Source: an uncultured Acidobacteriaceae bacterium (GTDB taxonomy: Bacteria > Acidobacteriota > Terriglobia > Terriglobales > Acidobacteriaceae). Taken from it: a stretch of DNA of 64,000 bases. A program made the translations under genes and the position numbers. Of the stretch, positions 44,846 through 63,765 are shown one piece after another. A model generated the notes under the pieces. The model was not told the origin of the DNA, searched no databases, and saw only the letters and a list, made by a program, of their open reading frames with translations. The stretch is from assembly GCA_963822545.1 (NCBI GenBank), contig CAWGIB010000006.1, positions 565,428 to 629,427 on the forward strand, in the 5' to 3' direction. The stretch's first letter is position 1. Each line of letters begins with the position of its first letter.

Positions 44846-45214
44846 GGGGGCGTCCCGGATTCGACGGAGATGCTTGCGGCCAGGAGGCATGCCGTGGTGC
44901 ACACACCCGTTAATCGCGTGCAAAATGATAATTGCCAATCAACAGATGGCATACGCAGCCTAATTAATTAGGCTACCGCTCTCCGCAGCTTCGCCCTTGG
45001 GCTGTGAAAGAGCGTCACACAGAGGGCTGCTCTTCCCGTCTACGTCTGGGGCGGGAGGCTAAGATTACAGGCTAGCGTCTTCGGTTTCTTGTTCGTTCTG
45101 AGCCGGAGCCGCGAACGTCCTGGGGTAATGCCCAGGGCATGAACGGAATAAGCATGTAGTTCTCCTGTCCAGTAACATTTTCGGACGCGGGTTCAACTCC
45201 CGCCGCCTCCACCA
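44846..45214 (+). ncRNA. ssrA: tmRNA (SsrA)
   Basis: 5' GGGGGCGTCCCGGATTCGACGG. 3' GGACGCGGGTTCAACTCCCGCCGCCTCCACCA. The acceptor stem GGGGGCG/CGCCTCC contains a G3-U pair. The tag frame GCC AAT CAA CAG ATG GCA TAC GCA GCC TAA (44934-44963) encodes ANQQMAYAA*. Confidence 0.93.
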
Positions 45215-45612
45215 ATATCTACTTTATTATCAGTAACTTACTGACACATTTTAATTTCGTACAATAGCGTTCTGCGGAGGCGCGGGTTTTCCGCCGGCCT
45301 TCTCTCACGTTTTTTTCTTCTCACCGATCACGAACCAATCGAACGACTGATTATTCCTTGGAGGGATAGCTGGGGAAATGCACGCTCGGTTTTCGCACTG
45401 CCATTCTTGGACAGGATCCATTAATGAGTTCCTGTTTGCCGACAAGCCGGGAGTTGATCGGATTGGTCAAAAGAAGCGCGTTTAGCATTACTAATCCCGA
45501 AAACTAGCGGCTGCCGACGATTTGGAAGCGTCGCAGTCAATTTCATGATTAATTTAGAGGGCATTTACGAAGTATCGAATCGACAGTTTGGACGATTCCG
45601 CTTGGAGATCGC

Positions 45613-46434
45613 ATGAATATGTCTGCCGGTGTTGGCAGCGAACGCTTCCAAAGCGGCGCGAACAAATATGCTGCCTACCTCGAGACGCCCGAGGGTCGGT
45701 TGCGCTCGGACTTGGCCTTCGCCAACCTGCGCGATTTCCTTCCCCAAGAGGCCGGCCAACCGTTGCGCGCACTGGATCTCGGGTGTGGGACAGGAGCGAC
45801 GGCAGTTCGCCTAGCGCGACTTGGCATTCATGTCACGGCTGTGGATTGTTCTGCGGCGATGCTAGCAATCGCGCAACGCGCGGCCCACGAAGCCGGGGTC
45901 ACGGAGAAGATGGTGGTGAAACACGGAGAGGCAGCACAGCTTGCCAGCTTGTTTCCCGCTCGTTCGTTCGATCTAATTCTCTGCCATAACATCCTGGAAT
46001 ATGTCGACGATCCGGGAGCCGTGTTGCGCGATTCGGCTCGCGCCTTGCGAGGTTCATCCGCGATTGTCTCGGTGCTCGTGCGCGGCCAGGCAGGCGACAT
46101 ATTAAAATCCGCAATCCGAACGGGCGATTTGGATGAGGCCGAAAAAGGTCTTATCGCTGAGTGGGGAAAAGAATCTCTCTACGGAGGGAGATTGCGACTC
46201 TTCAGTAACGACTACCTGCAACGTATTTTGAAAGCGGCATCTCTAACATTAATTGTGGAGCGTGGTGTGCGCGTGGTTGCGGATTATTTGCCGCCGGCGG
46301 TGTCTCGCGACACCGAGTATCAGCGCATTCTCGAACTGGAACGTAAGCTGGGTATGCGGCCAGAGTTTGCCGCAATATCGCGCTATAGGCAATGCTTAGT
46401 TCGACGCAAACCGATGAAGGAGGTGCGCGAGTGA
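45613..46434 (+). CDS. class I SAM-dependent methyltransferase, CmoM/SmtA-like architecture
   Basis: LRALDLGCGTGATAVRLARLGIHVTAVDCSAAML (motif I). LILCHNILEYVDDPGAVL, GVRVVADYL, ELERKL...EFAAISRY are collinear with E. coli CmoM as I remember it. GGAGA SD present. Confidence 0.8.
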   Translation: MNMSAGVGSERFQSGANKYAAYLETPEGRLRSDLAFANLRDFLPQEAGQPLRALDLGCGTGATAVRLARLGIHVTAVDCSAAMLAIAQRAAHEAGVTEKMVVKHGEAAQLASLFPARSFDLILCHNILEYVDDPGAVLRDSARALRGSSAIVSVLVRGQAGDILKSAIRTGDLDEAEKGLIAEWGKESLYGGRLRLFSNDYLQRILKAASLTLIVERGVRVVADYLPPAVSRDTEYQRILELERKLGMRPEFAAISRYRQCLVRRKPMKEVRE

Positions 46435-47489
46435 ACGACATGCGAGCGGAATCTTCACTCTTCACAACCGGCGCGAAACCTCCAGTTGCTGGTATTTCGC
46501 TCGGGCTTGGGCTCACCAACGAGTGCAATCTTTCATGTGCCTTTTGTTACCGGGATCCAGTCCGCACCGATCGCCTCTCTCTGGATCAAGTGAAGTCGGT
46601 CATGGAACGACTGCCGATCCGTTCGGTGAATCTTGGTACCGGCGAGAACGGCATGCATCCGGAGTTCAAAGCGATATTGGGTTACCTGCAAACGCAACCG
46701 ATCAAACTCACTATCACTTCGAACGGCCACAGCGCTGCAGTTTTAGAAGACAAAGAGCTGCGCGCTTTTCACGATATTGAGTTTTCTCTCGATTACCCGA
46801 CACAAGCCGAACAGGACGCGCAGCGCGGAAACGGCAATTGGGAACTGATCCAACAGCAAGCGGAACGCTGCGTGAGACTCGGCGTGCCGGTCACCATCAT
46901 TTCGGTCATGATGAAAGCGAACTATTTGCGTCTGGCCGATGTGGCGCGAGTGGCCAAGGGTTTTGACGCGCCATTACGCGTGAATGTGTATCAGGCGGTT
47001 CGATCCGACATCTATGCACTCTCCTACGAAGAATACTGGGAGGGATTCCGTCGCCTGTTTGCGGAGACCGACGTCATCGCTATTGGCGAGCCGCTGGTGC
47101 GAGCTATGGCGGGTCTACCGCCGCTCTGGGGAGGATGTGGAGTTAGCACTGTGAGGGTCACTCCGCGGGCTACGACACAGCCCTGCGTGTACTGGCCGGG
47201 ATCGGGCGAGCCGCTGGCGAATTTGATTTCGGCGGGAGTTGAGGTTCTCGACTCCGCGCCGTTCGACCAATGCCGCACGCTCCCCGAAGCTTGCCAGCCT
47301 TGCGAATTCCGGGACTCGTGCCATGGCGGTTGTGCCGGACGCCGACGCTTGCAAGGTGCTCTGCTGGAGCCTGACTATTACTGCCCGATCATTCGCGGGG
47401 AGCGGCCGCGCCTCGAAATCCGCATGGCCGCTACCCGCGATCTGCCCAAGATGAGCAGTTCCTGCACTACTGTAGTAATCGCCCGATAA
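46431..47489 (+). CDS. radical SAM protein with C-terminal SPASM-type cysteine cluster
   Basis: CNLSCAFC (Cx3Cx2C). C-terminus GGCGVSTVRVTPRATTQPCVYWPG and CQPCEFRDSCHGGCAGRR. The GTG start overlaps the methyltransferase stop (GTGA), with AAGGAGG 7 nt upstream. Confidence 0.85.
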   Translation: MNDMRAESSLFTTGAKPPVAGISLGLGLTNECNLSCAFCYRDPVRTDRLSLDQVKSVMERLPIRSVNLGTGENGMHPEFKAILGYLQTQPIKLTITSNGHSAAVLEDKELRAFHDIEFSLDYPTQAEQDAQRGNGNWELIQQQAERCVRLGVPVTIISVMMKANYLRLADVARVAKGFDAPLRVNVYQAVRSDIYALSYEEYWEGFRRLFAETDVIAIGEPLVRAMAGLPPLWGGCGVSTVRVTPRATTQPCVYWPGSGEPLANLISAGVEVLDSAPFDQCRTLPEACQPCEFRDSCHGGCAGRRRLQGALLEPDYYCPIIRGERPRLEIRMAATRDLPKMSSSCTTVVIAR

Positions 47490-47501: not shown

Positions 47502-48230
47502 TATTTCGCGTCCATCCAGGTATCTGACCCCGTCAGCTTCACTGCCACGTCCGTAATGGAGATGTGCAGGGGCTTGCCGTCGGCGGTGCCGCGGTGCTCG
47601 GTTGAGACTAGTAGAGGACCTGCCTTCTTGTAGCCTGCCCACGTTGCTTTGACGAGGCTCGGCTTCTTGTCCCCGCCGTGGTGGAAGACGAGGTACTCGA
47701 CGCGGTTGTCTTTGCCGACGTAGAGGTCCCAGGTGTCGCCGGGCGTGTAGCCGCCGGCTCCGCGCCATACTTCACCGAGACCAGCTCGCTGAGCCGGCGC
47801 CCGTCTGGCAGTTTCTTCATCCCTTCATCGGTCACGGTGGCGCTGGTGTCCCAGTAGGCATGTAACGGGAACAGGAGCCAATAATTATCGTTGATGAAAG
47901 CCGGCATCAGTTTGCTTCTTCGGTGTCGTCGTTGAGTTCGGAGCGCATGTAGGTAACCTTGACCGGCTTACCGTCTTTATCTTTCCCCTCAAAAGAGACC
48001 TTGCCGGTTTTGGGCTCCCACTCCCACGTGCGAGAAAGTTTGAAGAGTCCGGTGATTTCCCCGTTCCAGGTGTAGCGGATCGCATCAATTTGCCCGAACG
48101 AATCGAGACCATAAGTCTTGGCGATCTGTTCGAGAATGGGCGGGCGCGTCTGCGCCCAGGAGGTTGCGGCAAGGGCCAGCACTCCGCAAAGCAGAAGACC
48201 CATGATGGTTAAACGGCGGGCATTTCTCAT
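47502..48230 (-). pseudogene. secreted DUF6503-like protein, about 2 frameshifts
   Basis: Signal peptide MRNARRLTIMGLLLCGVLALAATSWA (frame 47907-48296). Then MPAFINDNYWLLFPLHAYWD (47608-47907). Then a third frame ...GYTPGDTWDLYVGKDNRVEYLVFHHGGDKKPSLVKATWAGYKKAGPLLVSTEHRG...TWMDAK*. The total of about 243 codons fits one gene. Confidence 0.6.
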
Positions 48231-48412
48231 AGAGTTCACTCCTCGGTGAATTGAACGGATGCCGTGTTGGATGATGGTGCGAGCTTCGGGATACACGATT
48301 CGCGAGTTGGCACAGTGCTCTTCGACCGCCCTACGGATTCACAGCGATTGCCGCGAATTATACAACGCGGGTTTGGTTCTCGGCATTTGGCGAACGCACC
48401 ATCTACTCCGTC

Positions 48413-49756
48413 GAAGGTTGTTCCGCGGACTGCCGCGGTACCGCCGGTAGTCGCAACCGCCGGAGCCCGAGAATCGCGGCAGCCAGCGCCACAGATCCAT
48501 ATTCCAGAACCATGATCCATCCCGGAAGCCAGCCACGGACGGCCAAGCGTGCGCAAATGCCACACGTAGTAAGTTGGGATGATGCTCACCGTCCAAATGA
48601 TGATCGGGACCGACGAGGCCGAGCGGACAAACGGCAGCAGCCAGAGAAGGTACCAGGGATATACAACCGGCGCACATAGGAGGGATGCGGCCATCGGCCA
48701 CGCGAATGCTTCAGGCGAGAATGTCCCGGCCTGGCGTCTCAGCCAGATTGCGACAAGAAATCCCGCGAGCGCGGCCACGCCCAGCGGCAAGCTGCGGCGC
48801 CGCCAGTCTCTCGAGCGCTGCGAACACCGGATCATTGAAGCGGAAACTCCGCAAGTAAGTGCCAAGCGAGCCAGTGGGAATTCGTCCATGGTTCAGGAAC
48901 GGCGTATAGAGAAGTCCAAACACAGCGGCTGCAAGCGAGGCCGTCGCGGGTGCGAACGCGTTTCCAGTAGAGCGGCAGTAGAACGATCGGGAGAAATTTA
49001 ACCGCGACCGCCAGCCCAAATGCTACCGCCGCCACCTCGCGCCAGCGCCGACCGAGCGCGGCGGCGGAAATCAATAGCAGCAACACACCGACGATATCGA
49101 TGTGACCGCTGCCTGCCACGTCGGTCGCCAGCAGTGGATGCCAGGCATAAGCCAGGATCCAGTGCGCTCCTTGCCCGGTGCTACGCAAGATCTCGATGAG
49201 AACGAGAACTATTGCCAAATCGCAAAATACAAAAGCTACCTTTCAGCGAAAAAAGAGACTCATGAATCCCGGTGACGGCGCGGAAGAAGATCTGTGCGCC
49301 CGGCGGATATGGGCTGGGTAAATCCGGATTGTTAAGCGAGCGCGTTTCCGGTATATGCAATCCACGGAACGAAGGATCGCTCGGGACCACGAGATAGGGG
49401 TTGTAGCCGAGCCGCTGCAAGCGGCCATCCCAAAGATATCGGTGAATGTCGTCATCGGGCCCCGGCGGCGACAGAAGAAACGGGATACGGCACAGGGCAG
49501 CCAGTACCAGCCCGATGACTATTACCCGCCGCGGAAATTTTGGGGTAGCGAAAAGCTCGCGAACGGACAGGAGATATGCAACGACGGCAATGCCCAGCGG
49601 AAAGATAAAGGACGGTCCGCCCATGCGGCTGAAGTTGCGTGCGCAAACCGTCAGCGCCACGAGTAAGACGGCGCCGAGCAGGTAAAGCCTGCCTGCCGGG
49701 GTGAACTTCAAAGGCCTACCGTGCCTGTCCGCAACTGCGCCACGGTCGGCGCCCAC
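48413..49756 (-). pseudogene. polytopic glycosyltransferase, GT87/DUF2029-like, at least 4 frameshifts
   Basis: Collinear membrane-protein sequence is spread over ORFs 49181-49756, 48832-49218, 48711-49019 and 48236-48889. A final frame ends ...GWIMVLEYGSVALAAAILGLRRL...PSTE* at 48413. Contains DDDIHRYLWDGR and YPPGAQ motifs. Confidence 0.6.
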
Positions 49757-50439
49757 TGTTTTAACCAGACCGCGGTTCGTGGCGCCCGGGCGGGAGCGAG
49801 TTCGAGTTCCGTGGCGAGCCGAGTCAGGTCGCCAGCCACGTCGATGTCATAGAACGGATCGGTGAAGCCAACTGAGAGATCCAACCCGCGCGCGCGCGCC
49901 AACAAGGCCTCAAGCGCGCTATTGGTACCCATGCTATCTCGATCGAAAAGCCCTTCATGAGGAGCCTTTGCTCCTACGAGGTAATACCCGCCATCGTGGG
50001 TCGGTCCTATAACCACGTCGTGCCCGGCGAGCTCCTCGAACGCGCCTTCGAGAATCGACGTCGGCAGATGCGGGCTGTCGCTGTTGAAGGCAACGACGCG
50101 TTTTTGGCCGACGGCTGAGAAGTGCGCAAAGACCGAATTGAGCCCCGCCGCAAGGCCCTGTCCTTTCTGCGCCACTACGCCCGACACACTTGGCGCCAAC
50201 CGCGTAAGTTCTTCGACATCCGGGGCCGGACACATAATGGCTACGTCAACCATTTTTACGGAGTGCGCCAGCGCAATGGTGTCCTTCAAGAGACAGCGAT
50301 AGAGTTCAGTGACCGCCGCAACTGGAAGGCTCGGAGATAAACGCGTTTTGACCATCCCAGGCGTCGGTGCCTTTGCCATAATCACCAGCGTTCGCTTGTC
50401 GTTTGACGAAGGGGCCGTATTTACGCGAGAGGATTCCAT
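49708..50439 (-). CDS. DUF2064 family (TIGR04282-type) glycosyltransferase-like protein
   Basis: LVIMAKAPTPGMVKTRLSP, QKGQGLAAGL, AFNSDSPHLP, GPTHDGGYYLVG is the hallmark DUF2064 pattern. Confidence 0.85.
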   Translation of the reverse strand: MESSRVNTAPSSNDKRTLVIMAKAPTPGMVKTRLSPSLPVAAVTELYRCLLKDTIALAHSVKMVDVAIMCPAPDVEELTRLAPSVSGVVAQKGQGLAAGLNSVFAHFSAVGQKRVVAFNSDSPHLPTSILEGAFEELAGHDVVIGPTHDGGYYLVGAKAPHEGLFDRDSMGTNSALEALLARARGLDLSVGFTDPFYDIDVAGDLTRLATELELAPARAPRTAVWLKQWAPTVAQLRTGTVGL

Positions 50440-50458: not shown

Positions 50459-51181
50459 TCACGCCGGCCGGGGATTTGCCCCCGCTCGTTGCCGGAAATA
50501 ATAGCGCACGATAAGCGAGAGGATGAACCATGCCGCCCCTACTGTGCCGCGCAGCGTACCGCTGATCTTGGATTTCCCAATCCGCGGATAATAGCTAACT
50601 GGCACCTCAACGATGCGGGATCCCGCGAGCGTTCCTTTTAGTATTATTTCCACCGCCCATCCATAGGTCGTCTCGTGCAGCTCAAGGCGGCGAAGAACAT
50701 CTGCTCGTCCAGCGCGGAATGGTCCGAGGTCGCTTATCTTCACACGGTACAAGAGCCGGATCAGGAAAGCCGCCAGGTGATTGCCAAAGGCGGCATGCCA
50801 GGGCAGCGCGCCCGGAATGCTCTGCTTTCCGAGGCGCGAACCGATTGTGATATCTGCGCGTCCCTCGAGGATTGGTGCGAGGAGGAGTGGCAGTTCAGCC
50901 GGTCGGTCGCTGTAATCGCCGTCAAGGAATACCACAATGTCAGGGCTGCGGGCTTCAGCCAATCCCGTCAAGCAGGCGCGACCATATCCGCGACGAGGCT
51001 CGCGGAGGATACGGGCCCCCATTTTGGCAGCAATCTCGGGAGTCCCGTCGCTTGAATTGCTGTCTACGACTAAGACCTCCGTAACAATGCCGGCGGGAAG
51101 GTCAGCTAAAACGCGGCCGATGGACTGCGCTTCATTATGAGTAGGAATGATAACTGAGACTCGTACCTGGCCGGGACTCAA
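50459..51181 (-). CDS. family 2 glycosyltransferase (DPM1/polyprenol-phosphate sugar transferase-like)
   Basis: VSVIIPTHNEAQSI, VVDSNSSDGT, FLDGDYSD. Has a C-terminal TM helix. A TTG start at 51181 directly abuts the DoxX stop; the ORF is open to 51241. Confidence 0.85.
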   Translation of the reverse strand: MSPGQVRVSVIIPTHNEAQSIGRVLADLPAGIVTEVLVVDSNSSDGTPEIAAKMGARILREPRRGYGRACLTGLAEARSPDIVVFLDGDYSDRPAELPLLLAPILEGRADITIGSRLGKQSIPGALPWHAAFGNHLAAFLIRLLYRVKISDLGPFRAGRADVLRRLELHETTYGWAVEIILKGTLAGSRIVEVPVSYYPRIGKSKISGTLRGTVGAAWFILSLIVRYYFRQRAGANPRPA

Positions 51182-51182
51182 C

Positions 51183-51677
51183 TTACCACCATGGCGAGGA
51201 TGGCCAGCGCCGCGCAAGCAAGGCGTCCACGCCCCACGCACGGCCGGCGCGCCCTACCGTGAGCGAAAGCGCTGCCATCACCGAAACCAACAACTCCCAG
51301 ATCCACGACGTGCCCCATTCAGAAACCCAAAGGCTGCCCAGGTACAGGAACGCTATGAAGGCAGCAGGGCGCGTCAAAAGGCCAATGACCAGCAGGATTC
51401 CGAGACCGATCTCAGTCACGGCCTGCATCGGAGCGGCCATTGCGGCGTGACTCGCCGCCAAACCCATCACTGCCTTCCACACGGCCGGCGAGTGACTCGC
51501 CTTTATGTAGTAGTTGATGAGGCCTGCATAGCCCGCTGGCGTGTAGAGGCCTTTCCCCAGATTCTCGAAGAAGACCCACACCAGCATCGCTCCGATGGTG
51601 ACACGAACTATTGCCAGCCCATTTGCGGCGGCTGGTCGGGTTGCCGCATTTTGCGTTGGGCTTGCGTTCAACGTCAT
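51183..51677 (-). CDS. DoxX/DoxD-like membrane protein
   Basis: Four hydrophobic helices (LAIVRVTIGAMLVWVFF, AVTEIGLGILLVIGLLTRPAAFIAFLYL). GAGG SD lies before the ATG at 51677. Confidence 0.7.
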   Translation of the reverse strand: MTLNASPTQNAATRPAAANGLAIVRVTIGAMLVWVFFENLGKGLYTPAGYAGLINYYIKASHSPAVWKAVMGLAASHAAMAAPMQAVTEIGLGILLVIGLLTRPAAFIAFLYLGSLWVSEWGTSWIWELLVSVMAALSLTVGRAGRAWGVDALLARRWPSSPWW

Positions 51678-52109
51678 CGTAAACCTCGTACCCAATGGAT
51701 GCCGTGCCAGTCTGCTTCGGGAAAAAAGGGATTGGACATCTTAAGCAATTCTTCCCGTTCTTGCTAGTCGAAAGGCAAGTGGTTCTGCAGGGCATAGTCG
51801 GTAACGACAATCGCGTTCGTGACGACGCAACTGTCAATCTCTATTGATTTGCCAGAAACGGGCTTCTGGGAAGTTGGCCGGATTAGTAACGACAAGTCGG
51901 CTAGGCTGGAGACAAAATCCTGGATGCTTGCTCGTTTCCCATTACCTAGGTTGTGAAACTTCCTGAAGCAGACTTCTGGACAACTTCAGGCGGTCTGGCC
52001 GAAATCACGGATGCGACCTAGTTTCCGCCTCCAGATGACTTCAGGTTTGCCCGTCGCCTAGGAGCCACTGCCAAAGGTTCGTGCGCACTTCAGATCCCGT
52101 CGAAATGGT

Positions 52110-52640
52110 TCACCGTCCACGGCTCGTCTTGTCAGGCGTTGCGGAGCAATTGCTGTCGCAGGAAGGCGCCGACATCGTCAAGCGCCTGTTGAGCCGCAGA
52201 ATGAGGTTGGAGGGGAAGACATGAACCATGCCCTCCCACGTATGGACCTCTACAGTCCCTCCCGCAGCCTCAAGGGACTCACCGTAGCGAATTGAATCGT
52301 CGAGGAGAACTTCGTCTTCCCCCACGTGAATCCGGACCGGCGGAAGCCCAGCCAAGTCGGCATACACAGGCGATGCTAGGGGGTCGTGCGGATCGTGCGT
52401 ACCGAGATAGAGCCGCGCCGTGGTTGCCAGTGAGTCCCTGGTCATGAGAGGGTCTGCCTCTGCCCGCGTTTTCATGCTTTCGCCCGACAGTGCCAGGTCC
52501 GCCCAAGGCGACATCACGGCTGCGGCGGCAGGACGCAGCCCGGATACGTCTCGTGCTTGGGCAACTAATAAGGAGAGAAGTGAAAGCGCGAGGCCGCCTC
52601 CGGCGGAATCACCCACCAACGCAATTGTGTCAAGTTCAAC
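52110..52640 (-). pseudogene. C-terminal remnant of an alpha/beta-hydrolase (hormone-sensitive-lipase-type esterase)
   Basis: GDSAGGGLALSL nucleophile elbow; ...DPL..P.YADL.GLPPV.IHVGEDEVLLDD...H.W.GM.HVF. The about 100-aa N-terminal part with the HGGG motif has no room before the htrA stop at 52752. Confidence 0.65.
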
Positions 52641-54423: not shown

Positions 54424-55674
54424 ATGGTTGAGACGATTCAAACCCGGTGCTGTATTGCGGGCGGCGGTCCTGCCGGCATGATGCTGGGGTTTCTTCTAGC
54501 GCGGGCGGGGATTGATGTCGTTGTGCTCGAAAAACATCCCGATTTTCTGCGCGATTTTCGGGGAGACACGATTCATCCTTCGACTCTTGAACTGATGTAT
54601 GAACTGGGGCTGCTGGAAGAATTTTTGAAGCGTCCGCACCAGGAGTTGCGCGAGTTGCAAGGAAAAGTTGGTAACGAATCATTTGTGATGGGCGACTTCA
54701 CGCACCTGCCAACTCACTGCAAGTTTCTGGCGCTGATGCCGCAGTGGGACTTTTTGAATTTTGTGGTGGAGCAGGCGCGCGGTTATCCGGCATTTCATTT
54801 GAAGATGGAGGCCGAGGTTACCGATCTGATCGAAGAGGGCGGAAGAGTTGTTGGTGTTCGGGGGAAAAGCGTCGGCGGAATATTTGAGGTGCGCGCCGAT
54901 CTCACGGTCGGAGCGGATGGGCGGCGCTCCGTGGTGCGCGAGCGGGCCCGGCTGAAGGTGATCGATCTGGGCGCGCCGATGGATGTGATGTGGATGCGGT
55001 TGAGCCGCAAGCCCGAGGATGGGGAACAGACGTTCGGGCACGCGGATCAAGGGAAGATTCTCGTAATGCTCAATCGTGACAGTTACTGGCAGTGCGCACT
55101 GGTCATTCCAAAAGGGGCGGCGGATCAGGTGCGGAAGCGCGGCATGACGGCGTTCAGGGAAGAAATTGTTGCGCTGGAGCCATTCCTGCGAGACCGGGTT
55201 GAGGAGTTGCGGGATTGGGATCAGGTCAGCCTTTTGACGGTTGCGGTTGACCGGTTGGCGGAGTGGCACCGGCCTGGACTTCTTTGTATTGGGGATGCGG
55301 CGCACGCGATGTCGCCGATTGGTGGGGTCGGGATCAATCTGGCGATTCAGGATGCGGTGGCGGCGTCGAATATTCTGGCGCCTTCGTTTCGGCGTGGGAA
55401 TCCGTCGGAGGAAGACCTGGATGCTGTGCAGCGTCGCAGAACGTTTCCAACCGTGGCAACACAACGGATGCAGCTTGCAATTCAGAACCGGATTATCCGG
55501 CGCGTGCTCGGGAGCACAAAACCGCTTAAGGTTCCATGGATGCTGAGACTTCTCATCTTCTTCCCTTTTCTTCGGCGGATTCCGGCACGAGTGATCGGCG
55601 TCGGCTTCAGGCCGGAGCATATAAAGGCGGACGCCGGAGAAGGTGGTCCAGGGAACTTGCGCAGCGCGCCTTGA
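54424..55674 (+). CDS. FAD-dependent monooxygenase/oxidoreductase
   Basis: CCIAGGGPAGMMLGFLLARAGIDVVVLEK (GxGxxG); LLCIGDAAHAMSPIGGVGINLAIQDA (GD motif). Confidence 0.9.
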   Translation: MVETIQTRCCIAGGGPAGMMLGFLLARAGIDVVVLEKHPDFLRDFRGDTIHPSTLELMYELGLLEEFLKRPHQELRELQGKVGNESFVMGDFTHLPTHCKFLALMPQWDFLNFVVEQARGYPAFHLKMEAEVTDLIEEGGRVVGVRGKSVGGIFEVRADLTVGADGRRSVVRERARLKVIDLGAPMDVMWMRLSRKPEDGEQTFGHADQGKILVMLNRDSYWQCALVIPKGAADQVRKRGMTAFREEIVALEPFLRDRVEELRDWDQVSLLTVAVDRLAEWHRPGLLCIGDAAHAMSPIGGVGINLAIQDAVAASNILAPSFRRGNPSEEDLDAVQRRRTFPTVATQRMQLAIQNRIIRRVLGSTKPLKVPWMLRLLIFFPFLRRIPARVIGVGFRPEHIKADAGEGGPGNLRSAP

Positions 55675-55768
55675 GCGATTTCTTGATTCCCGTGATTTCC
55701 TTGAAAACCACCGGCATTCTTTGGCCGCGACCTTGCGAACTCTGCTGCGATCTGAGTATTGTTACGAA

Positions 55769-57296
55769 GTGAAATTCGCGCGCAGTAGTGGAATTCTGCT
55801 CCACCTCACGTCATTGCCGTCACGCTTTGGAATTGGCGATCTGGGGCCAGCGGCGTATGAATTTGCCGATTTTCTGGCGGATGGTGGGCAGAAGATCTGG
55901 CAGGTGCTGCCGCTGAATCCTACGGGGTACGGGGATTCTCCTTATCAATGCTTTTCGGCATTTGCGGGTAATCCTTTGCTGCTCAGCCTTGAGCTGCTGA
56001 GGGATCAAGGTGTGCTTGAAGATTCGGATCTCGCTAGCGTTCCGAAATTTCCTGACAACTTCGTCGATTACGGCCCGGTGATCGCGTACAAGATGGCGAT
56101 GCTGCGCCGCGCGGCCGAGGCATTTTTTGCGGATGGGTCAGCGACCGACCGCGCCGCTTTCGACCAGTTCTCGGAGAGTTCAGCGGCGTGGCTCGACGAC
56201 TACGCGCTTTTCATGGCGGTGAAGGGTGCGCATTGCGGAGTGATATTCACTTCATGGGATCCGGCAATTCGGCGGCGCGATCCGCAAGCGATCCGGGAGT
56301 GGTCGGAGAAAGCTGGCGCCGGAGATCAGGGCATTCAAGTATTGGCAGTTTGAATTTTTCCGGCAGTGGTAGCGGCTGAAGAGCTATGTCGGTGGGCGCG
56401 GCATTCGGTTCATGGGCGACATTCCGATTTATGTGGCGCATGACAGCGCGGATGTGTGGGCGCGTCCCGGAGTTTTCTATCTCGACGAGAACGGCTCTCC
56501 GACGGTGGTGTCGGGCGTGCCACCGGATTATTTCAGCGCGACGGGACAGCTTTGGGGAAATCCGATTTACCGGTGGGACGTGCTGGCGGCGGATGGATAC
56601 AAGTGGTGGATCGAGCGGTTCCGGGCATCGCTTGCTCTGTTTGATAGGGTGCGGCTCGATCATTTTCGCGGATTCGAATCGTACTGGGAGGTGCCCGGCG
56701 GCGAAACGACGGCGATCAAGGGGCGCTGGACGAAGGGTCCGGGAGAGAGTCTGTTTCTGGCGCTGCAGCGAGAGTTCGGAGAGTTGCCGATCGTGGCCGA
56801 GAATCTAGGAGTGATCACGCCTGCCGTGGAGAAACTTCGGCAACAGTTCGGGCTGCCGGGCATGAGCCTGCTGCAATTTGCTTTTGGAACGGATCCGCAG
56901 GGGCCGTCGTTTCGTCCGCATAATTACAGCCGCGATCTGGTCGCCTACACCGGAGGGCACGACAACGATACGACGGTCGGATGGTGGAACAGTTCGGTGG
57001 GAGCGGATTCGACGCGCACACTGGAGGATGTCCGGAAAGAACATGAATTCGCGCGGTCTTATTTGAATTTCAGCGATGATTCGCAGGTTCATTGGGTGAT
57101 GATACGGGCGGTGATGGCGTCGGTTGCCGATACTGCGATTGTTCCTTTGCAGGATGTTCTGGGGCTGGGGACCGAGGCGCGAATGAATTTGCCGGGGCGC
57201 GTGAGTGGGAACTGGAAATGGCGGTACCGGCCGGGAGCGTTGACGAAGGACTTGAGTTCGCGGCTGCGTGAGTTGGCGACACTTTATGAGCGGTGA
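55769..57296 (+). pseudogene. malQ: 4-alpha-glucanotransferase (MalQ, GH77) with one frameshift and one in-frame TAG
   Basis: (V)KFARSSGILLHLTSLPSRFGIGDLG, QVLPLNPTGYGDSPYQ, GDIPIYVAHDSADVW, LDHFRGF, PIVAENLG. The frame changes at the AAA run 56309-56311. TAG lies at 56370-56372 inside FFRQW*RLK. Confidence 0.85.
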
Positions 57297-60350: not shown

Positions 60351-63300
60351 ATGAATAGCAAGTTCTTTGTGGTGCTGACAATGGTATTGTGCTTGGCCGG
60401 CATGGCGCTGGCGCAGTCCAGCACAGGATCGATTCAAGGAACCGTAACCGACACTCAGGGGGCGGTGATTCCTGACGCGTCGGTGGTGATTACGAATCAA
60501 GCGACGGGCCGCGTCATAACGGTTAAAACGAGTGGAGACGGCCTGTTCAGCCAGCCAGCGCTTGACCCCGGTTCCTACAAGGTCGAGGTAGACCAGCCCA
60601 ATTTTCAGAAGAGCATCAAGGACGTGGTGCTCCAGACAGCGCAGGTAGTCAACTTGGACTTCGCACTGGCGATCGGCGGGACCAGCCAGACAGTCGAAGT
60701 TTCAGCGGCGACGCCCATCGTCGACACGGCGACGTCGGGGATCAGCGATGTCGTGACGGGCAGCCAGATTACGGACTTGCCTCTCAACGGACGCAATTTA
60801 CACAATTGGCTTCATTAGTTCCGGGAGTGACCCGAGGCCAGCCCGGCAACCAGCAGAGCGGCTCAGGCAACCAGGCCGAGACTTTCCGTTATGCGGAGAG
60901 CGGCGGAGGCGCGCTTTCGGTGAATGGCCTTCGTGTGCAGGCCAACAATTTTCTTTTTGACGGCATCGATAACAACGAGTCGCTGGTGAATACAATCGTT
61001 TTCTTTGTACCACCGGATGCAATTCAAGAATTTCGAGTAGACACGAACGTCGCGCCGGCGGAGTACGGTCGCGCGGGCGGCGGCGTGATAAACGCTACTT
61101 ACAAGTCTGGCACAAATGACTGGCATGGAAGCGTTTTCTGGCAGATTCGAAACAGCGCAGCAGACGCTAATCCGAACTATTTCTCAGGGCGAGCCGGCGT
61201 TCCCGTTCCATCGCAACCAGTTCGGCGCCTCGGGCGGTGGATTTTTGATCAAGAATAAATTGTTTATTTTCGGCGACTATCAAGGCGTGAGGCAGTCCAA
61301 ACCGTTTGCCGGGGAAACCATCACCGTTCCGACGGCACTGGAGCGTACAGGGGATTTCTCGCAATATCCAAGCCAACTTTACTTTCCGGGCGCGACCACA
61401 CTTGCATCGCGAGTTCCAATACCGGGCAACAACTTTCTGACATCGGGACTGGGGATCGTTCCGGCTGGGCAAAACTACATGAACGCATTTCCTCTTCCCA
61501 ACATTCTGCTCGGAAGCGATCCGCGATGCGCCCTGACGGGAACCGACTTATCGTGTCTGCAGAACAACTACCAGGCACATCGTGTCCAGATTCAGAAATA
61601 CAACGACTTCGACACGCGCCTGGACTACATCCTGAGCCAAAAAGACCAGGCGTTCGGACGTTACAGCTACGGACAAGATGTCGATCTTACGACCTCGCAG
61701 ATGCCGACCTTGCCAGCGGGTTATGGATCTGGTTACCAATTCCAGCATCCACGCAGTGCCGTGCTCGGTGAAACGCATAGTTTCGGACCAAGCGTGATTA
61801 ACGAACTGCGCTTGGGTTATGTTCGCTCCTTCCTGGGCTATCAACCGCCGTTCGGATCGATTCCACTGTCGCAAAATCTGGGCATTCCCAATGCGAACAC
61901 CAACCCGTTGCTGGGTGGAGGAGCGTTGATCGGGAACAGCGGCAGCCAGCTTTCCTACACGGGTGATTATGGCGATTATTTTGTGCCAGAAAACACATAT
62001 CAGATTGCGGATAACGTTTCGTGGGTGAAAGGGCGCCACACGATCAAAATTGGCGCCAATATTCTTTGGCGGCAGGTAGCGTTTTTCAATGCGATCGCCG
62101 GCAAGGGCTTTTTCCAAGCTTCGTCGGGATCTCCGTGGTCGACCGGATACGAGCAGTCAGACATGCTATTTGGCTGGATGAACGACTACCAGGTTGGCCC
62201 GTCGAATGGCTACTATCACACGCGAAGCTGGGAGAACGGCTTTTATGGACAGGACGATTACCGGGTTAACAACCGCCTGACCTTGAACCTGGGGCTACGG
62301 TATGACATGTACACATGGCCGACGGAAATCAACAACCGGATGGCGAATTTCGACCAGGCAACCGGGCACATCATTTTGGCAGGACAAAATGGAGTTTCCG
62401 ACAGCACGCTTCAAAATCCGAAGCACAATTTCGCACCCCGCATCGGCTTTCGCGTACGATTTACACGGCGATGCAAAGAGTGTGATCCGCGGCGGATATG
62501 GCATCTTCTACTTCATAGATCGCGAAGGCATCGACAAGCAGATGTCGGAGAATGCGCCCTTCGGTGGCAGCGCATTTTATTCCTATGCAAACGGCTTCTT
62601 CGGAAACGGTCTGCTGACGCTGGGTGGCATCGCACAGCAGGGTCCGAATGGCGCACCGATCATCAGTTCGATTACGGCGTCAGGCTTCCCCAACAAGCAG
62701 GTGCTTGCGATCGACCTGAATAATCCCGCGAACGTAAGTTTGACAGGCTGGCGTCCTAACGACACAACTTCGATGGTGCAAGAGTGGAATCTGCAATACC
62801 AGCGGCAGATCGATACGAAAACTGCTGTGACTCTTGCGTACGTCGGGACCAAAGGCAGCCATCTCTCGACGTTCTATGACGTGAACCGCCCGGCCTATGA
62901 CAGCGGAATTAAACCCTATCCGCTGTTGGGAACGATTCCGGTGAATGACACCAGCGGCAGTTCGAATTACAACGGTGCACATGTGCAGGTACAGCGCCGG
63001 ATGACAAGGGGGCTGCAATTTGACACATCTTACACGTGGTCTCATGCGATTGATAATTCGCCAGCCGGGTTTGACAGCGACTACCGTTACGGCGGCAATG
63101 TGGTCGATCCGTTCCAATGGCAAACCAAGGAACGCGCCAATTCGAACCAGGACGTGCGCAACCGGTTCATGTTTAGCGCGCTTTACGAGTTACCCTTTGG
63201 ACGAGGCCGAGCATTTGGGGGCGATTGGAATCCAGCTGTGGACGCAATTGCCGGGGGATGGCGGATGAGCCCCATTGTTAACCTGGCCAGCGGCTTCCCA

Positions 63301-63765
63301 TTCGACGTCATCTGTCAATATTGCTATAGCCCGAGCACACGTCCTAACCTCGTAGGCCCTCTGCAACAACATACCAGCCCGAACGATTGGTTCAACATTT
63401 ACTCCTTCACTAAGGTTCCGACGTCGAGTAGCGGTACCCCGGTGGCTCCAGGAACTGGCCCGAGAAATCCCTTCACCGGACCTGGAACAAAGACGATGGA
63501 CTTGAATGTCGCTAAGACCTTTGCCTTTGGCGAACGAGTTCATGCGGAACTCAGCGGCGATATTTTTAACCTCTTCAACACACCGCAGTTCAGTCAACCC
63601 GATGGCAATCTGAATGACGCAACCACCTGTCCCGCGAGCGGAACATATAATGGGAATCCCTGCACACCCTGGACGATTGTGCAGCAGGGTAATTTCGGCA
63701 AGATTACCAGCTTGCGGTATGCGAGCGAGCGTGAAATTCAAGTGTCATTCCGTGTAAGCTTCTAA
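60351..63765 (+). pseudogene. TonB-dependent receptor with N-terminal CarboxypepD_reg domain, 3 frameshifts
   Basis: Signal peptide followed by GSIQGTVTDTQGAVIPDASVVITN..TG......T..DG.F....L.PG.Y. Plug region ITDLPLNGRN. The barrel ends REIQVSFRVSF. Frame changes lie at TTT 60797-60799, about 61170-61185, and TTT 62448-62450. Confidence 0.85.

What the first reader, a model, noticed from the sequence alone, without database searches (positions are those of the whole stretch)
45215..47489. Translationally coupled CmoM-like methyltransferase plus radical-SAM/SPASM enzyme immediately downstream of ssrA
After the tmRNA 3' end there is an AT-rich stretch of about 400 nt. It is followed by a SAM methyltransferase collinear with the tRNA-modifying CmoM/SmtA type. 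Its stop overlaps (GTGA) the start of a radical SAM protein with CNLSCAFC and a twin-cluster SPASM tail (CQPCEFRDSCHGGC).

SPASM enzymes usually mature peptides or proteins, whereas CmoM-type enzymes act on tRNA, so the pairing is unusual. The substrate could be a peptide (RiPP-like) or an RNA.

A 35-codon ORF with an SD-like GGAGGG upstream (45378-45485, MHARFSHCHSWTGSINEFLFADKPGVDRIGQKKRV) is the only precursor candidate I can see, and it is weak.

ssrA is a classic island-integration site. However, I find no repeat of the ssrA 3' end and no integrase in the window.
Basis: partly seen in the sequence, partly recalled or inferred. Interest (0 to 1): 0.6.

Follow-up and report, generated by a model that had tools for sequence, protein, structure and literature searches.

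The report
Radical-SAM pair of an envelope-sugar cassette
The methyltransferase and radical-SAM enzyme next to the tmRNA gene are real and conserved, but they belong to an unstudied seven-gene cluster that most likely builds an unusual lipid-linked sugar for the cell envelope of soil Acidobacteria; they are not a peptide- or tRNA-modifying pair.

Summary
A tmRNA gene is followed by about 400 nt of spacer. Then come a CmoM-collinear methyltransferase and, overlapping it by GTGA, a radical SAM/SPASM enzyme.

- The 35-codon ORF, the ssrA adjacency and the upstream genes are absent from all 109 related loci.
- The pair always faces a convergent operon: DoxX, GT2, DUF2064 (TIGR04282), GT87 (a GT-C glycosyltransferase) and a LolA/LprG-like secreted protein.
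- In 201 genomes of the family, 33 of 39 genomes with this operon carry this rSAM. Five others carry an unrelated Rv1681-family rSAM at the same place.
- Relatives at 47-56% identity in other phyla sit inside DoxX/GT2/GT87/DUF2064 operons.
- The enzyme has no RRE domain. Eight conserved auxiliary-cluster cysteines and an anSME-like fold are present.
- The genome has no CmoB, no ArsS and no nearby sulfatase.

Best reading: the pair makes or tailors an unusual sugar. The sugar is loaded on polyprenyl phosphate (GT2) and transferred outside the cytoplasm (GT87). The closest described analogue is the mycobacterial methylthioxylose (MTX) pathway. The exact chemistry is unknown.

The parts
44846..45214 (+). 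tmRNA (ssrA). It is a neighbour by chance and not part of the system.
   Evidence: ARAGORN and Rfam RF00023. No tmRNA lies next to the cluster in any of 109 related loci.
45497..45612 (+). Conserved leader or promoter region of the methyltransferase-rSAM operon. It includes a non-conserved 23-codon uORF (45545-45616) that ends in an ATGA overlap.
   Evidence: 73-81% nucleotide identity in about 10 close loci. The uORF is intact in 5 of 11. No covarying RNA structure was found.
45613..46434 (+). Class I SAM methyltransferase, collinear with CmoM (273 aa; the start may be 45619).
   Evidence: Pfam Methyltransf_11/25/23. CmoM model 112 bits against a cut-off of 366. PDB 4htf/8joz E about 5e-23 over the full length. 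Adjacent to the rSAM in 74 of 80 loci.
46431..47489 (+). Radical SAM/SPASM enzyme (352 aa, GTG start in a GTGA overlap). It has CxxxCxxC at C32/C36/C39 and eight conserved auxiliary-cluster cysteines: C236, C252, C288, C291, C297, C301, C318 and C345.
   Evidence: PF04055 and TIGR04085. Alignments A1 and A3. AF2 pLDDT 91. Foldseek top hit is anSME, TM 0.63-0.68.
47504..48230 (-). Secreted LolA/LolB/LprG-like protein, about 242 aa in relatives. In this assembly it is read in three frames (two frame switches).
   Evidence: tblastn of intact homologues. Intact in 71 related loci. AF2 pLDDT 79. Foldseek hits are LolA-superfamily proteins, LolB, LprG and LppX.
48421..49711 (-). GT87/MptA_B-family GT-C membrane glycosyltransferase. 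In this assembly it is read with four frame switches.
   Evidence: tblastn with the intact L001 homologue. Precomputed Pfam PF26314/PF09594 on the L001 and L002 orthologues.
49708..50439 (-). DUF2064 / TIGR04282 protein with a CofC-like nucleotidyl-transferase fold. It is the only TIGR04282 member in the genome.
   Evidence: TIGR04282 147.6 bits against a cut-off of 134. PF09837. PDB 3cgx and 7p97. Single copy in the genome.
50459..51241 (-). GT2 glycosyltransferase of the polyprenyl-phosphate-sugar synthase type.
   Evidence: PF00535. Best NCBIfam hits are AglJ at 128 bits, dolichyl-P hexose transferase and PpgS, all below their cut-offs.
51183..51695 (-). DoxX/DoxD-family small membrane protein; first gene of the convergent operon.
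   Evidence: PF04173 and PF07681. It travels with this rSAM family in other phyla too.

Best explanation
The methyltransferase and the radical SAM/SPASM enzyme are the cytoplasmic sugar-making or sugar-tailoring module of a conserved seven-gene envelope glycosylation cassette.

Proposed flow. Every step is inferred from family assignments and gene linkage; none was shown biochemically.
1. DUF2064 has a CofC/MobA-like nucleotidyl-transferase fold and activates a sugar phosphate.
2. The rSAM/SPASM enzyme performs a radical C-H activation on the sugar. The sugar may be nucleoside-, nucleotide- or lipid-linked at that point. The reaction is most likely an anSME/BtrN-style dehydrogenation or an epimerisation. 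The two fully Cys-ligated auxiliary clusters would carry the electron away.
3. The CmoM-like methyltransferase methylates the product.
4. The GT2 loads the sugar on polyprenyl phosphate.
5. The lipid-linked sugar is flipped. DoxX sits where GtrA sits in three-component systems; alternatively DoxX could be a quinone-linked electron sink for the rSAM.
6. The GT87 (GT-C) enzyme transfers the sugar to an envelope acceptor.
7. The LolA/LprG-like periplasmic protein handles the resulting lipid-anchored product.

What is shown is the linkage, the domain content and the fold. What is inferred is the substrate and the reaction. The position next to ssrA is incidental.
For: Neighbourhood:
- In 80 close loci, DUF2064 is present in 75; the other 5 are truncated contigs. 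The methyltransferase is present in 74, and GT87 and the small protein in 74.
- The same holds in 22 further loci. These include divergent 'type-2' cassettes with only 34-47% identical GT genes.

Census of 201 family genomes:
- This rSAM is in 33 of 39 genomes with the orthologous cassette, and in 6 of 162 without it. Fisher p = 1e-25.
- The Rv1681-family rSAM (NF049973, 475 bits against a cut-off of 380) occurs in only 6 genomes. Five of these are exactly the cassette genomes that lack this rSAM, and there it lies directly after the LolA-like gene. This is non-orthologous displacement.

Distant relatives:
- Relatives at 47-56% identity in Rokubacteria, in unclassified soil-metagenome contigs and in a further NCBI assembly lie inside DoxX/GT2/GT87/DUF2064 operons.
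- One database protein has a DUF2064 C-terminal stretch joined to this rSAM.

The enzyme itself:
- There is no RRE domain; the core starts at about residue 20.
- Eight invariant extra cysteines are present.
- Structural neighbours include anSME and the nucleoside/nucleotide-sugar enzymes BlsE, viperin, DesII and MoaA.

Other:
- The small neighbour has a lipid-carrier fold.
- The own genome has one TIGR04282 member and no ArsS, Rv1681-type or second ('X-type') cassette rSAM.
Against: - No biochemical datum exists for any member, so substrate and reaction are guesses.
- The closest sequence and structure relatives are mostly peptide or protein maturases: MftC at 69.8 bits, and anSME, SuiB, CteB, SkfB and PqqE.
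- One Planctomycete relative lies with other rSAM enzymes and no glycosyltransferase.
- One cassette genome (G388, a fragmented MAG) shows neither rSAM.
- The Fisher test ignores shared ancestry.
- In this assembly GT87 and the LolA-like gene carry six frame switches, so the pathway may be broken here. Housekeeping genes are also split in this assembly, which points to indel errors instead.
Confidence: 0.7

Rival explanations
1. The rSAM is a peptide or protein maturase (RiPP-like, or anSME-like acting on a protein), and the methyltransferase tailors the same peptide or protein.
For: The best sequence and fold relatives are MftC, SkfB, anSME, SuiB, CteB and PqqE. A small ORF (45378-45485) and a 23-codon uORF with an ATGA overlap lie upstream.
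Against: - ORF35 has no homologue in 109 loci.
- The uORF is broken in 6 of 11 close relatives.
- There is no RRE/PqqD domain and no room for one.
- No sulfatase is nearby.
- The only conserved neighbouring protein has no cysteine in its mature part and a LolA-like fold. It is absent from the cassettes of other phyla, which keep the rSAM.
Confidence: 0.1
2. The cassette is an arsenosugar-type pathway. The rSAM would attach the 5'-deoxyadenosyl radical to a methylated heteroatom (As, Se, S or similar) supplied by the methyltransferase. DUF2064 and GT2 would then process the resulting 5'-substituted 5'-deoxyadenosine.
For: - DUF2064 scores above the TIGR04282 cut-off; NCBI names that family 'arsenosugar biosynthesis glycosyltransferase'.
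- The cast of methyltransferase, rSAM, TIGR04282 and GT2 mirrors the ArsM/ArsS cassette.
- An ArsP_1 permease heads one type-2 cassette. A second methyltransferase in another cassette has weak ArsM similarity (42 bits).
- The MTX donor also starts from a SAM-derived 5'-substituted adenosine (PMC11127046).
Against: - The rSAM is not ArsS: 28 bits against a cut-off of 300.
- The methyltransferase resembles CmoM, not ArsM.
- Two fully Cys-ligated auxiliary clusters fit electron transfer better than adenosyl addition.
- No ars genes lie in the window.
Confidence: 0.12
3. The pair modifies tRNA or tmRNA. The methyltransferase would be a CmoM orthologue, placed next to ssrA for a functional reason.
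For: Full-length collinearity with CmoM. Physical adjacency to ssrA.
Against: - CmoM model 112 bits against a cut-off of 366.
- No CmoB in the genome: best 34 bits against 275, while the E. coli control is positive.
- ssrA adjacency is found in 0 of 109 related loci.
- The methyltransferase is dispensable in 6 of 80 loci.
Confidence: 0.02
4. The cluster is cargo of a genomic island integrated at ssrA.
For: - Synteny with two same-genus genomes ends exactly at the ssrA 3' end.
- One of those genomes has a 27-nt repeat of the ssrA 3' end 3.4 kb downstream, so ssrA may be an integration site in this genus.
- The cassette is patchy: 19% of family genomes have it, and both congeners lack it.
Against: - No repeat of the ssrA end in 64 kb.
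- No integrase among the scanned ORFs.
- No compositional break.
- The genes that follow ssrA in a congener lie on another contig here, so this is a rearrangement and not a clean insertion.
Confidence: 0.06

Closest known systems
Methylthioxylose (MTX) capping pathway of Mycobacterium tuberculosis lipoarabinomannan: MtxS (Rv0539, GT2) and MtxT (Rv0541c, GT-C), with Rv0540 between them
   Same: - A GT2 makes a polyprenyl-phosphate-linked unusual pentose.
- A GT-C enzyme transfers that pentose outside the cytoplasm.
- The sugar derives from a SAM by-product, 5'-methylthioadenosine (PMC8780516, PMC11127046, PMC12088412).
- The window has the same GT2 + DUF2064 + GT87 trio.
- The rSAM that replaces ours in five genomes belongs to the family NCBI names after M. 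tuberculosis Rv1681.
   Different: - Orthology to the Mtb proteins was not tested, because no Mtb sequence was available.
- That Rv0540 is a DUF2064 protein rests on my memory and on earlier scan notes.
- No rSAM or CmoM-like methyltransferase has been described for MTX.
- This cassette also has DoxX and a LolA-like protein.
- The organisms are Gram-negative Acidobacteria.
ArsM/ArsS arsenosugar cassette with TIGR04282 and TIGR04283 ('rSAM/selenodomain-associated transferases 1 and 2')
   Same: The cast is the same: methyltransferase, radical SAM enzyme, TIGR04282 protein and GT2. The DUF2064 protein passes the TIGR04282 cut-off.
   Different: - The rSAM is a SPASM enzyme, not ArsS (28 bits against 300).
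- The GT2 scores only 51 bits against 182 for TIGR04283.
- The methyltransferase is not ArsM.
- The genome has no ArsS.
- GT87, DoxX and the LolA-like gene are extra.
Anaerobic sulfatase-maturating enzyme anSMEcpe (PDB 4K36-4K39)
   Same: - It is the best structural match: TM 0.63-0.68 at similar length.
- Neither protein has an RRE.
- Both have a SPASM domain with eight auxiliary-cluster cysteines, which implies two fully ligated clusters.
   Different: Sequence identity is only 17-18%. No sulfatase or CxPxR-type target lies nearby. The spacing of the cysteines differs: two before and two after the CX2CX5CX3C block.
CmoM/SmtA, tRNA cmo5U carboxyl methyltransferase (PDB 4HTF, 8JOZ)
   Same: The alignment is collinear over the full length, E about 5e-23. 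The Class I fold and the C-terminal extension are shared.
   Different: It scores far below the family cut-off (112 against 366). The genome has no CmoB to make the substrate. It is linked to a glycosylation cassette and not to tRNA genes.
Three-component periplasmic glycosylation systems (GtrA/GtrB/Gtr*; pentofuranose systems of Kelly et al. 2024, PMC11127046)
   Same: A polyprenyl-P-sugar synthase is combined with a small membrane protein and a GT-C transferase. Epimerising enzymes (ORF13, DprE1/E2) tailor the lipid-linked pentose.
   Different: There is no GtrA-family flippase; DoxX holds that slot. The donor-building enzymes are DUF2064 and a radical SAM enzyme, not a PRPP-dependent transferase.

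Membership tests
CmoM (NF008264, tRNA cmo5U methyltransferase) | Score at or above the curated equivalog cut-off (366 bits) | tested here: not met
   112.1 bits.
CmoM (NF008264, tRNA cmo5U methyltransferase) | The organism makes cmo5U, so CmoB must be present | tested here: not met
   The best CmoB (TIGR00452) match in the own genome is 34 bits against a cut-off of 275. The E. coli control is over the cut-off. The genome is 93.6% complete.
Radical SAM superfamily | CxxxCxxC motif and a PF04055 match | tested here: met
   C32/C36/C39 are invariant in 31 and in 43 sequences. PF04055 scores 48.4 bits against 29.5.
SPASM subgroup | C-terminal seven-Cys motif (C..GxxxxC, then CX2CX5CX3C, then C) and a TIGR04085 match | tested here: met
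   TIGR04085 scores 28.9 against 27. C236, C252, C288, C291, C297, C301 and C318, plus C345, are conserved. In the window protein the motif's Gly is Ala (A247).
Mycofactocin maturase MftC (TIGR03962) | Score at or above 265 bits; an MftA/MftB context | tested here: not met
   69.8 bits, covering the N-terminal half only. No mft genes lie in the neighbourhood.
ArsS (TIGR04167) | Score at or above 300 bits | tested here: not met
   28.2 bits and 28.7 bits. No ArsS is found anywhere in the genome.
anSME | A cognate sulfatase with a Cys/Ser-x-P-x-R target nearby | tested here: not met
   No sulfatase domain was found in the ORFs scanned between 37.9 and 63.8 kb. Only the fold resembles anSME.
RiPP radical SAM maturases | An RRE (PqqD-like) domain, or a partner with one, and a conserved precursor peptide gene | tested here: not met
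   No RRE/PqqD hit, and only about 20 residues precede the core. ORF35 is not conserved. The uORF is intact in 5 of 11.
TIGR04282 (DUF2064, 'transferase 1, rSAM-associated') | Score at or above 134 bits | tested here: met
   147.6 bits and 148.1 bits. This applies to the neighbour at 49708-50439.
MTX pathway (MtxS/Rv0540/MtxT) | Orthology of the GT2, DUF2064 and GT87 proteins to Rv0539, Rv0540 and Rv0541c | not tested
Only the shared domain composition was seen.
MTX pathway (MtxS/Rv0540/MtxT) | The product is 5-deoxy-5-methylthio-xylofuranose on a polyprenyl-phosphate carrier | not testable with these tools
   This needs glycan or lipid chemistry.
Three-component periplasmic glycosylation (GtrA/GtrB/GT-C) | A GT2 polyprenyl-P-sugar synthase, a GtrA-type flippase and a GT-C transferase | tested here: inconclusive
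   The GT2 resembles AglJ, DPM-type and PpgS enzymes but scores below all cut-offs. The GT-C is present. No GtrA is present; DoxX sits in its place.

The most novel reading that the evidence does not exclude
The SPASM radical SAM enzyme (with its CmoM-like methyltransferase) and the Rv1681-family radical SAM enzyme would be interchangeable makers of the unusual pentose donor of an MTX-like pathway. They might, for example, perform a radical C3 epimerisation or rewrite C5 of a SAM-derived 5-deoxy-pentose.

The DUF2064/GT2/GT87 trio would then install that sugar on an envelope glycolipid, and a LolA/LprG-like carrier would ferry the glycolipid.

If so, two things follow. Rv1681 ('MoeX', function unknown) would be a missing enzyme of methylthioxylose biosynthesis in mycobacteria. 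MTX-type capping would also exist far outside the Actinomycetota.
Probability: 0.15. Interest if true: 0.8.

Novelty: new variant of a known kind. Interest (0 to 1): 0.55.

Why it matters
This rSAM family has about 150 clusters at 50% identity with E below 1e-30, and thousands of near-identical copies in soil and peat metagenomes. It has no curated name or known reaction.

It is under very strong constraint: 82-91% identity across genera, more than its neighbours.

It is genetically tied to a lipid-linked glycosylation trio whose only studied relative makes the methylthioxylose cap of tuberculosis lipoarabinomannan.

Solving its reaction would add a new radical-SAM sugar chemistry. It would assign a role to DUF2064/TIGR04282. 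It would describe an envelope component of abundant uncultured Terriglobales.

The complementary distribution with the Rv1681 family gives a concrete, testable lead for an orphan mycobacterial enzyme.

Tried and rejected
- ORF35 as precursor: tblastn against 102 loci gave only chance hits (best E 0.096, at unrelated places).
- A 23-codon uORF with an ATGA overlap: intact in only 5 of 11.
- A structured RNA in the conserved 115-nt leader: RNAalifold -11.9 kcal/mol with almost no covariation. Rfam found nothing but the tmRNA.
- ssrA island: no repeat, no integrase and no GC break.
- Sulfatase maturase: no sulfatase nearby.
- ArsS or MftC membership: scores far below the cut-offs.
- The search for related loci with the 31-sequence alignment failed because no conserved stretch was found. 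It was repeated with 9 sequences, but the 80 loci kept were all close relatives.
- Promoter/terminator scan: nothing above chance.
- Literature searches for DUF2064 and Rv0540 found nothing. The primary MTX paper (PMC5357196) is not held.
Full report
**1. The observation**

The window holds a tmRNA gene at 44846-45214 (+), found by ARAGORN and Rfam (192.7 bits). A 398-nt spacer follows. Its GC is about 0.52-0.53 against about 0.58 around it, so it is only mildly AT-richer.

A 273-aa class I methyltransferase is encoded at 45613-46434. Its stop overlaps, as GTGA, a GTG at 46431 that opens a 352-aa radical SAM protein ending at 47489. Most database homologues are also 352 aa.

CNLSCAFC is C32/C36/C39. 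CQPCEFRDSCHGGC is C288-C301. The 35-codon ORF with GGAGGG upstream is there too.

**2. Family assignments of the two proteins**

The methyltransferase aligns over its whole length with E. coli CmoM/SmtA (PDB 4htf and 8joz, E about 5e-23). It scores only 112 bits against the 366-bit cut-off of the CmoM model. The genome has no CmoB (best 34 bits against 275, with E. coli positive as a control). It therefore shares CmoM's architecture but is not CmoM.

The rSAM enzyme matches PF04055 and just passes the SPASM domain model (28.9 against 27). Every named family lies far below its cut-off: MftC 69.8 against 265, DynA, NirJ2 and ArsS 28 against 300.

Across 1.84 billion representative proteins, only 153 clusters reach E below 1e-30. 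It is a small, unnamed family.

Alignments of 31 and 43 members show the CxxxCxxC triad plus eight conserved cysteines: C236, C252, C288, C291, C297, C301, C318 and C345. That is enough for two fully ligated auxiliary clusters, as in anSME.

The AlphaFold model is confident (pLDDT 91.2). Its best structural match is anSMEcpe (TM 0.63-0.68), followed by SuiB, CteB, BlsE, SkfB, PqqE, viperins, DesII and MoaA. The core begins at about residue 20, so there is no RRE domain.

**3. What lies around the pair**

A convergent operon starts 14 nt after the rSAM stop. It encodes:
- a secreted protein of about 242 aa;
- a GT87/MptA_B-family GT-C glycosyltransferase;
- a DUF2064 protein that passes the TIGR04282 cut-off (147.6 against 134);
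- a GT2 of the polyprenyl-phosphate-sugar synthase type;
- a DoxX membrane protein.

I predicted the secreted protein's structure from 32 intact orthologues (pLDDT 79). It matches LolA-superfamily proteins, LolB and the mycobacterial glycolipid carriers LprG and LppX. It is therefore a lipid-carrier-like protein and not a plausible rSAM substrate. Its mature part has no cysteine.

**4. Conservation of the neighbourhood**

In 80 loci of uncultured Terriglobales with 82-91% identical rSAM:
- DUF2064 is present in 75, and the other 5 contigs are truncated;
- the methyltransferase sits directly upstream in 74;
- GT87 and the carrier-like gene are present in 74.

The six loci without the methyltransferase have unrelated genes there.

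None of the 109 loci examined has a tmRNA gene, ORF35 or the window's upstream genes next to the cluster. Only the last 115 nt or so before the methyltransferase start are conserved, and only in the closest relatives. That stretch holds a 23-codon uORF ending in ATGA. The uORF is intact in just 5 of 11, and the stretch shows no covarying structure.

More distant family members (L016, L019, L020, L034) sit beside a divergent cassette with 34-47% identical DUF2064, GT87 and GT2. That cassette carries either a second, unrelated rSAM/SPASM ('X-type') or an SDR epimerase/dehydratase between GT87 and GT2. DoxX sits directly upstream of the methyltransferase-rSAM pair.

**5. Census**

In 301 genomes sampled across the phylum, only 2 have the enzyme. 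In 201 genomes of the family, 38 do. Both same-genus genomes lack it.

The orthologous DUF2064 (59% identity or more) occurs in 39 genomes:
- 33 carry this rSAM; one of these is at a contig edge;
- 5 carry a bona fide Rv1681-family rSAM instead (NF049973, 475 bits against 380), placed directly after the carrier-like gene;
- 1 fragmented MAG shows neither.

A family-wide search finds the Rv1681 type in only 6 genomes: those five plus one genome that has both. The Fisher p-values are 1e-25 and 2e-33. They are uncorrected for phylogeny.

Two unrelated rSAM enzymes filling one slot in an otherwise constant cassette is strong evidence that a radical step is integral to the pathway.

The own genome has a single TIGR04282 member. 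It has no ArsS, no Rv1681-type and no X-type rSAM.

**6. Other phyla**

A profile search returned members at 47-58% identity labelled Chloroflexota, Rokubacteria/Methylomirabilota, Planctomycetota and Acidobacteriota.

Five of six contigs I looked up place the enzyme inside DoxX/GT2/GT87/X-type rSAM/DUF2064 operons. The Planctomycete contig has it with the X-type rSAM, two B12-rSAM enzymes and a methyltransferase, but no glycosyltransferase.

The X-type enzymes form one orthologous family (43-79% identity).

One database protein joins a DUF2064 C-terminus to this rSAM. It comes from a 1.9-kb contig, so it may be a gene-calling artefact.

**7. Interpretation**

The pair is the sugar-making or sugar-tailoring arm of an envelope glycosylation cassette. 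The proposed roles are:
- DUF2064 activates the sugar;
- the rSAM, with or without the methyltransferase, modifies it;
- GT2 loads it on polyprenyl phosphate;
- DoxX acts as a flippase analogue or an electron sink;
- GT87 transfers the sugar outside the cytoplasm;
- the LolA/LprG-like protein handles a lipid-anchored product.

The nearest described system is the methylthioxylose pathway of M. tuberculosis. There MtxS (Rv0539, GT2) makes the decaprenyl-phosphate-linked sugar from 5'-methylthioadenosine, and MtxT (Rv0541c, GT-C) transfers it (PMC8780516, PMC11127046, PMC12088412). Kelly et al. note that it is unclear whether such a reaction exists outside lipoarabinomannan assembly (PMC11127046).

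Orthology to the Mtb proteins was not tested here. That Rv0540 is a DUF2064 protein rests on my memory and on earlier notes of this scan.

The ArsM/ArsS/TIGR04282/TIGR04283 cassette has the same cast but a different rSAM and a different methyltransferase.

My odds for the reaction are:
- radical dehydrogenation or epimerisation of the sugar, about 45%;
- 5'-deoxyadenosyl addition, ArsS-style, about 15-20%;
- protein or peptide modification, about 10%;
- something else, the rest.

**8. ssrA and the island idea**

There is no repeat of the ssrA end, no integrase in the scanned ORFs and no compositional break.

Synteny with two congeners stops exactly at the ssrA 3' end. One congener has a 27-nt repeat of that end 3.4 kb downstream. 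So ssrA may be an integration or rearrangement site in this genus.

The genes that follow ssrA in the other congener lie on another contig here. That points to rearrangement, not a clean insertion.

**9. State of the locus in this assembly**

GT87 is read in frames -1, -2, -3, -1 and -2. The carrier-like gene is read in three frames. The other five genes are intact.

Other genes in this assembly are also split. These include the 4-alpha-glucanotransferase at 55643-57296, an outer-membrane barrel at 61116-63765 and the malic enzyme on contig C9. I therefore lean towards indel errors of a long-read MAG rather than decay.

**10. Verdict**

The peptide or RNA reading is wrong. The real unit is a seven-gene cassette of unknown chemistry that recurs in this scan and in several phyla.

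It is a new variant of lipid-linked periplasmic glycosylation, with an uncharacterised radical SAM step. The complementary Rv1681-family distribution is a new, testable lead.

Noticed in passing
window 47504-49711; also 55643-57296, 61116-63765, 52110-52619: Many genes in this assembly are split by frame switches: GT87 (4), the LolA-like gene (2), the GH77 4-alpha-glucanotransferase, an OMP_b-brl_4 barrel and a truncated Abhydrolase_3. The malic enzyme on contig C9 is split as well.
   Followed up: partly
L139 (G467:C4:468000-487500); repeat at G467:C4:480581-480607: A same-genus genome has a 27-nt copy (93% identity) of the ssrA 3' end 3.4 kb downstream of its tmRNA gene. This is the classical signature of an element integrated at ssrA. 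The large ORFs in between have no Pfam match.
   Followed up: partly
L123 5612-6658(-), L124 5748-6788(-), L126 11914-12942(+): In cassette genomes that lack the SPASM rSAM and its methyltransferase, an Rv1681-family radical SAM protein (NF049973, over the cut-off, no SPASM domain) follows the LolA-like gene in the same direction. The function of Rv1681 ('MoeX') is unknown in the literature I could search.
   Followed up: yes
window 45545-45616: A 23-codon uORF (MINLEGIYEVSNRQFGRFRLEIA) ends in an ATGA overlap with the first ATG of the methyltransferase. It lies inside a 115-nt leader conserved at the DNA level in the closest relatives. The reading frame is kept in only 5 of 11.
   Followed up: yes
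L131 8001-14783: A Planctomycete relative (47% identity) sits with the X-type rSAM/SPASM, two B12-binding radical SAM enzymes, a LysR regulator and a methyltransferase, but no glycosyltransferase. This is a different use of the same rSAM pair.
   Followed up: no
L016 3740-4798 and 10904-11674; L130 7117-7356; L134 5562-6759: Cassettes in other lineages are flanked by ECF sigma / zf-HC2 anti-sigma genes. In one case (L016) an ArsP_1-type permease stands at the head of the operon.
   Followed up: no
L019 6463-7554 versus L016 7013-8161: The slot between GT87 and GT2 in 'type-2' cassettes is filled either by an rSAM/SPASM enzyme (X-type) or by an NAD-dependent sugar epimerase/dehydratase. This hints that the X-type enzyme does sugar redox or epimerisation chemistry.
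   Followed up: partly
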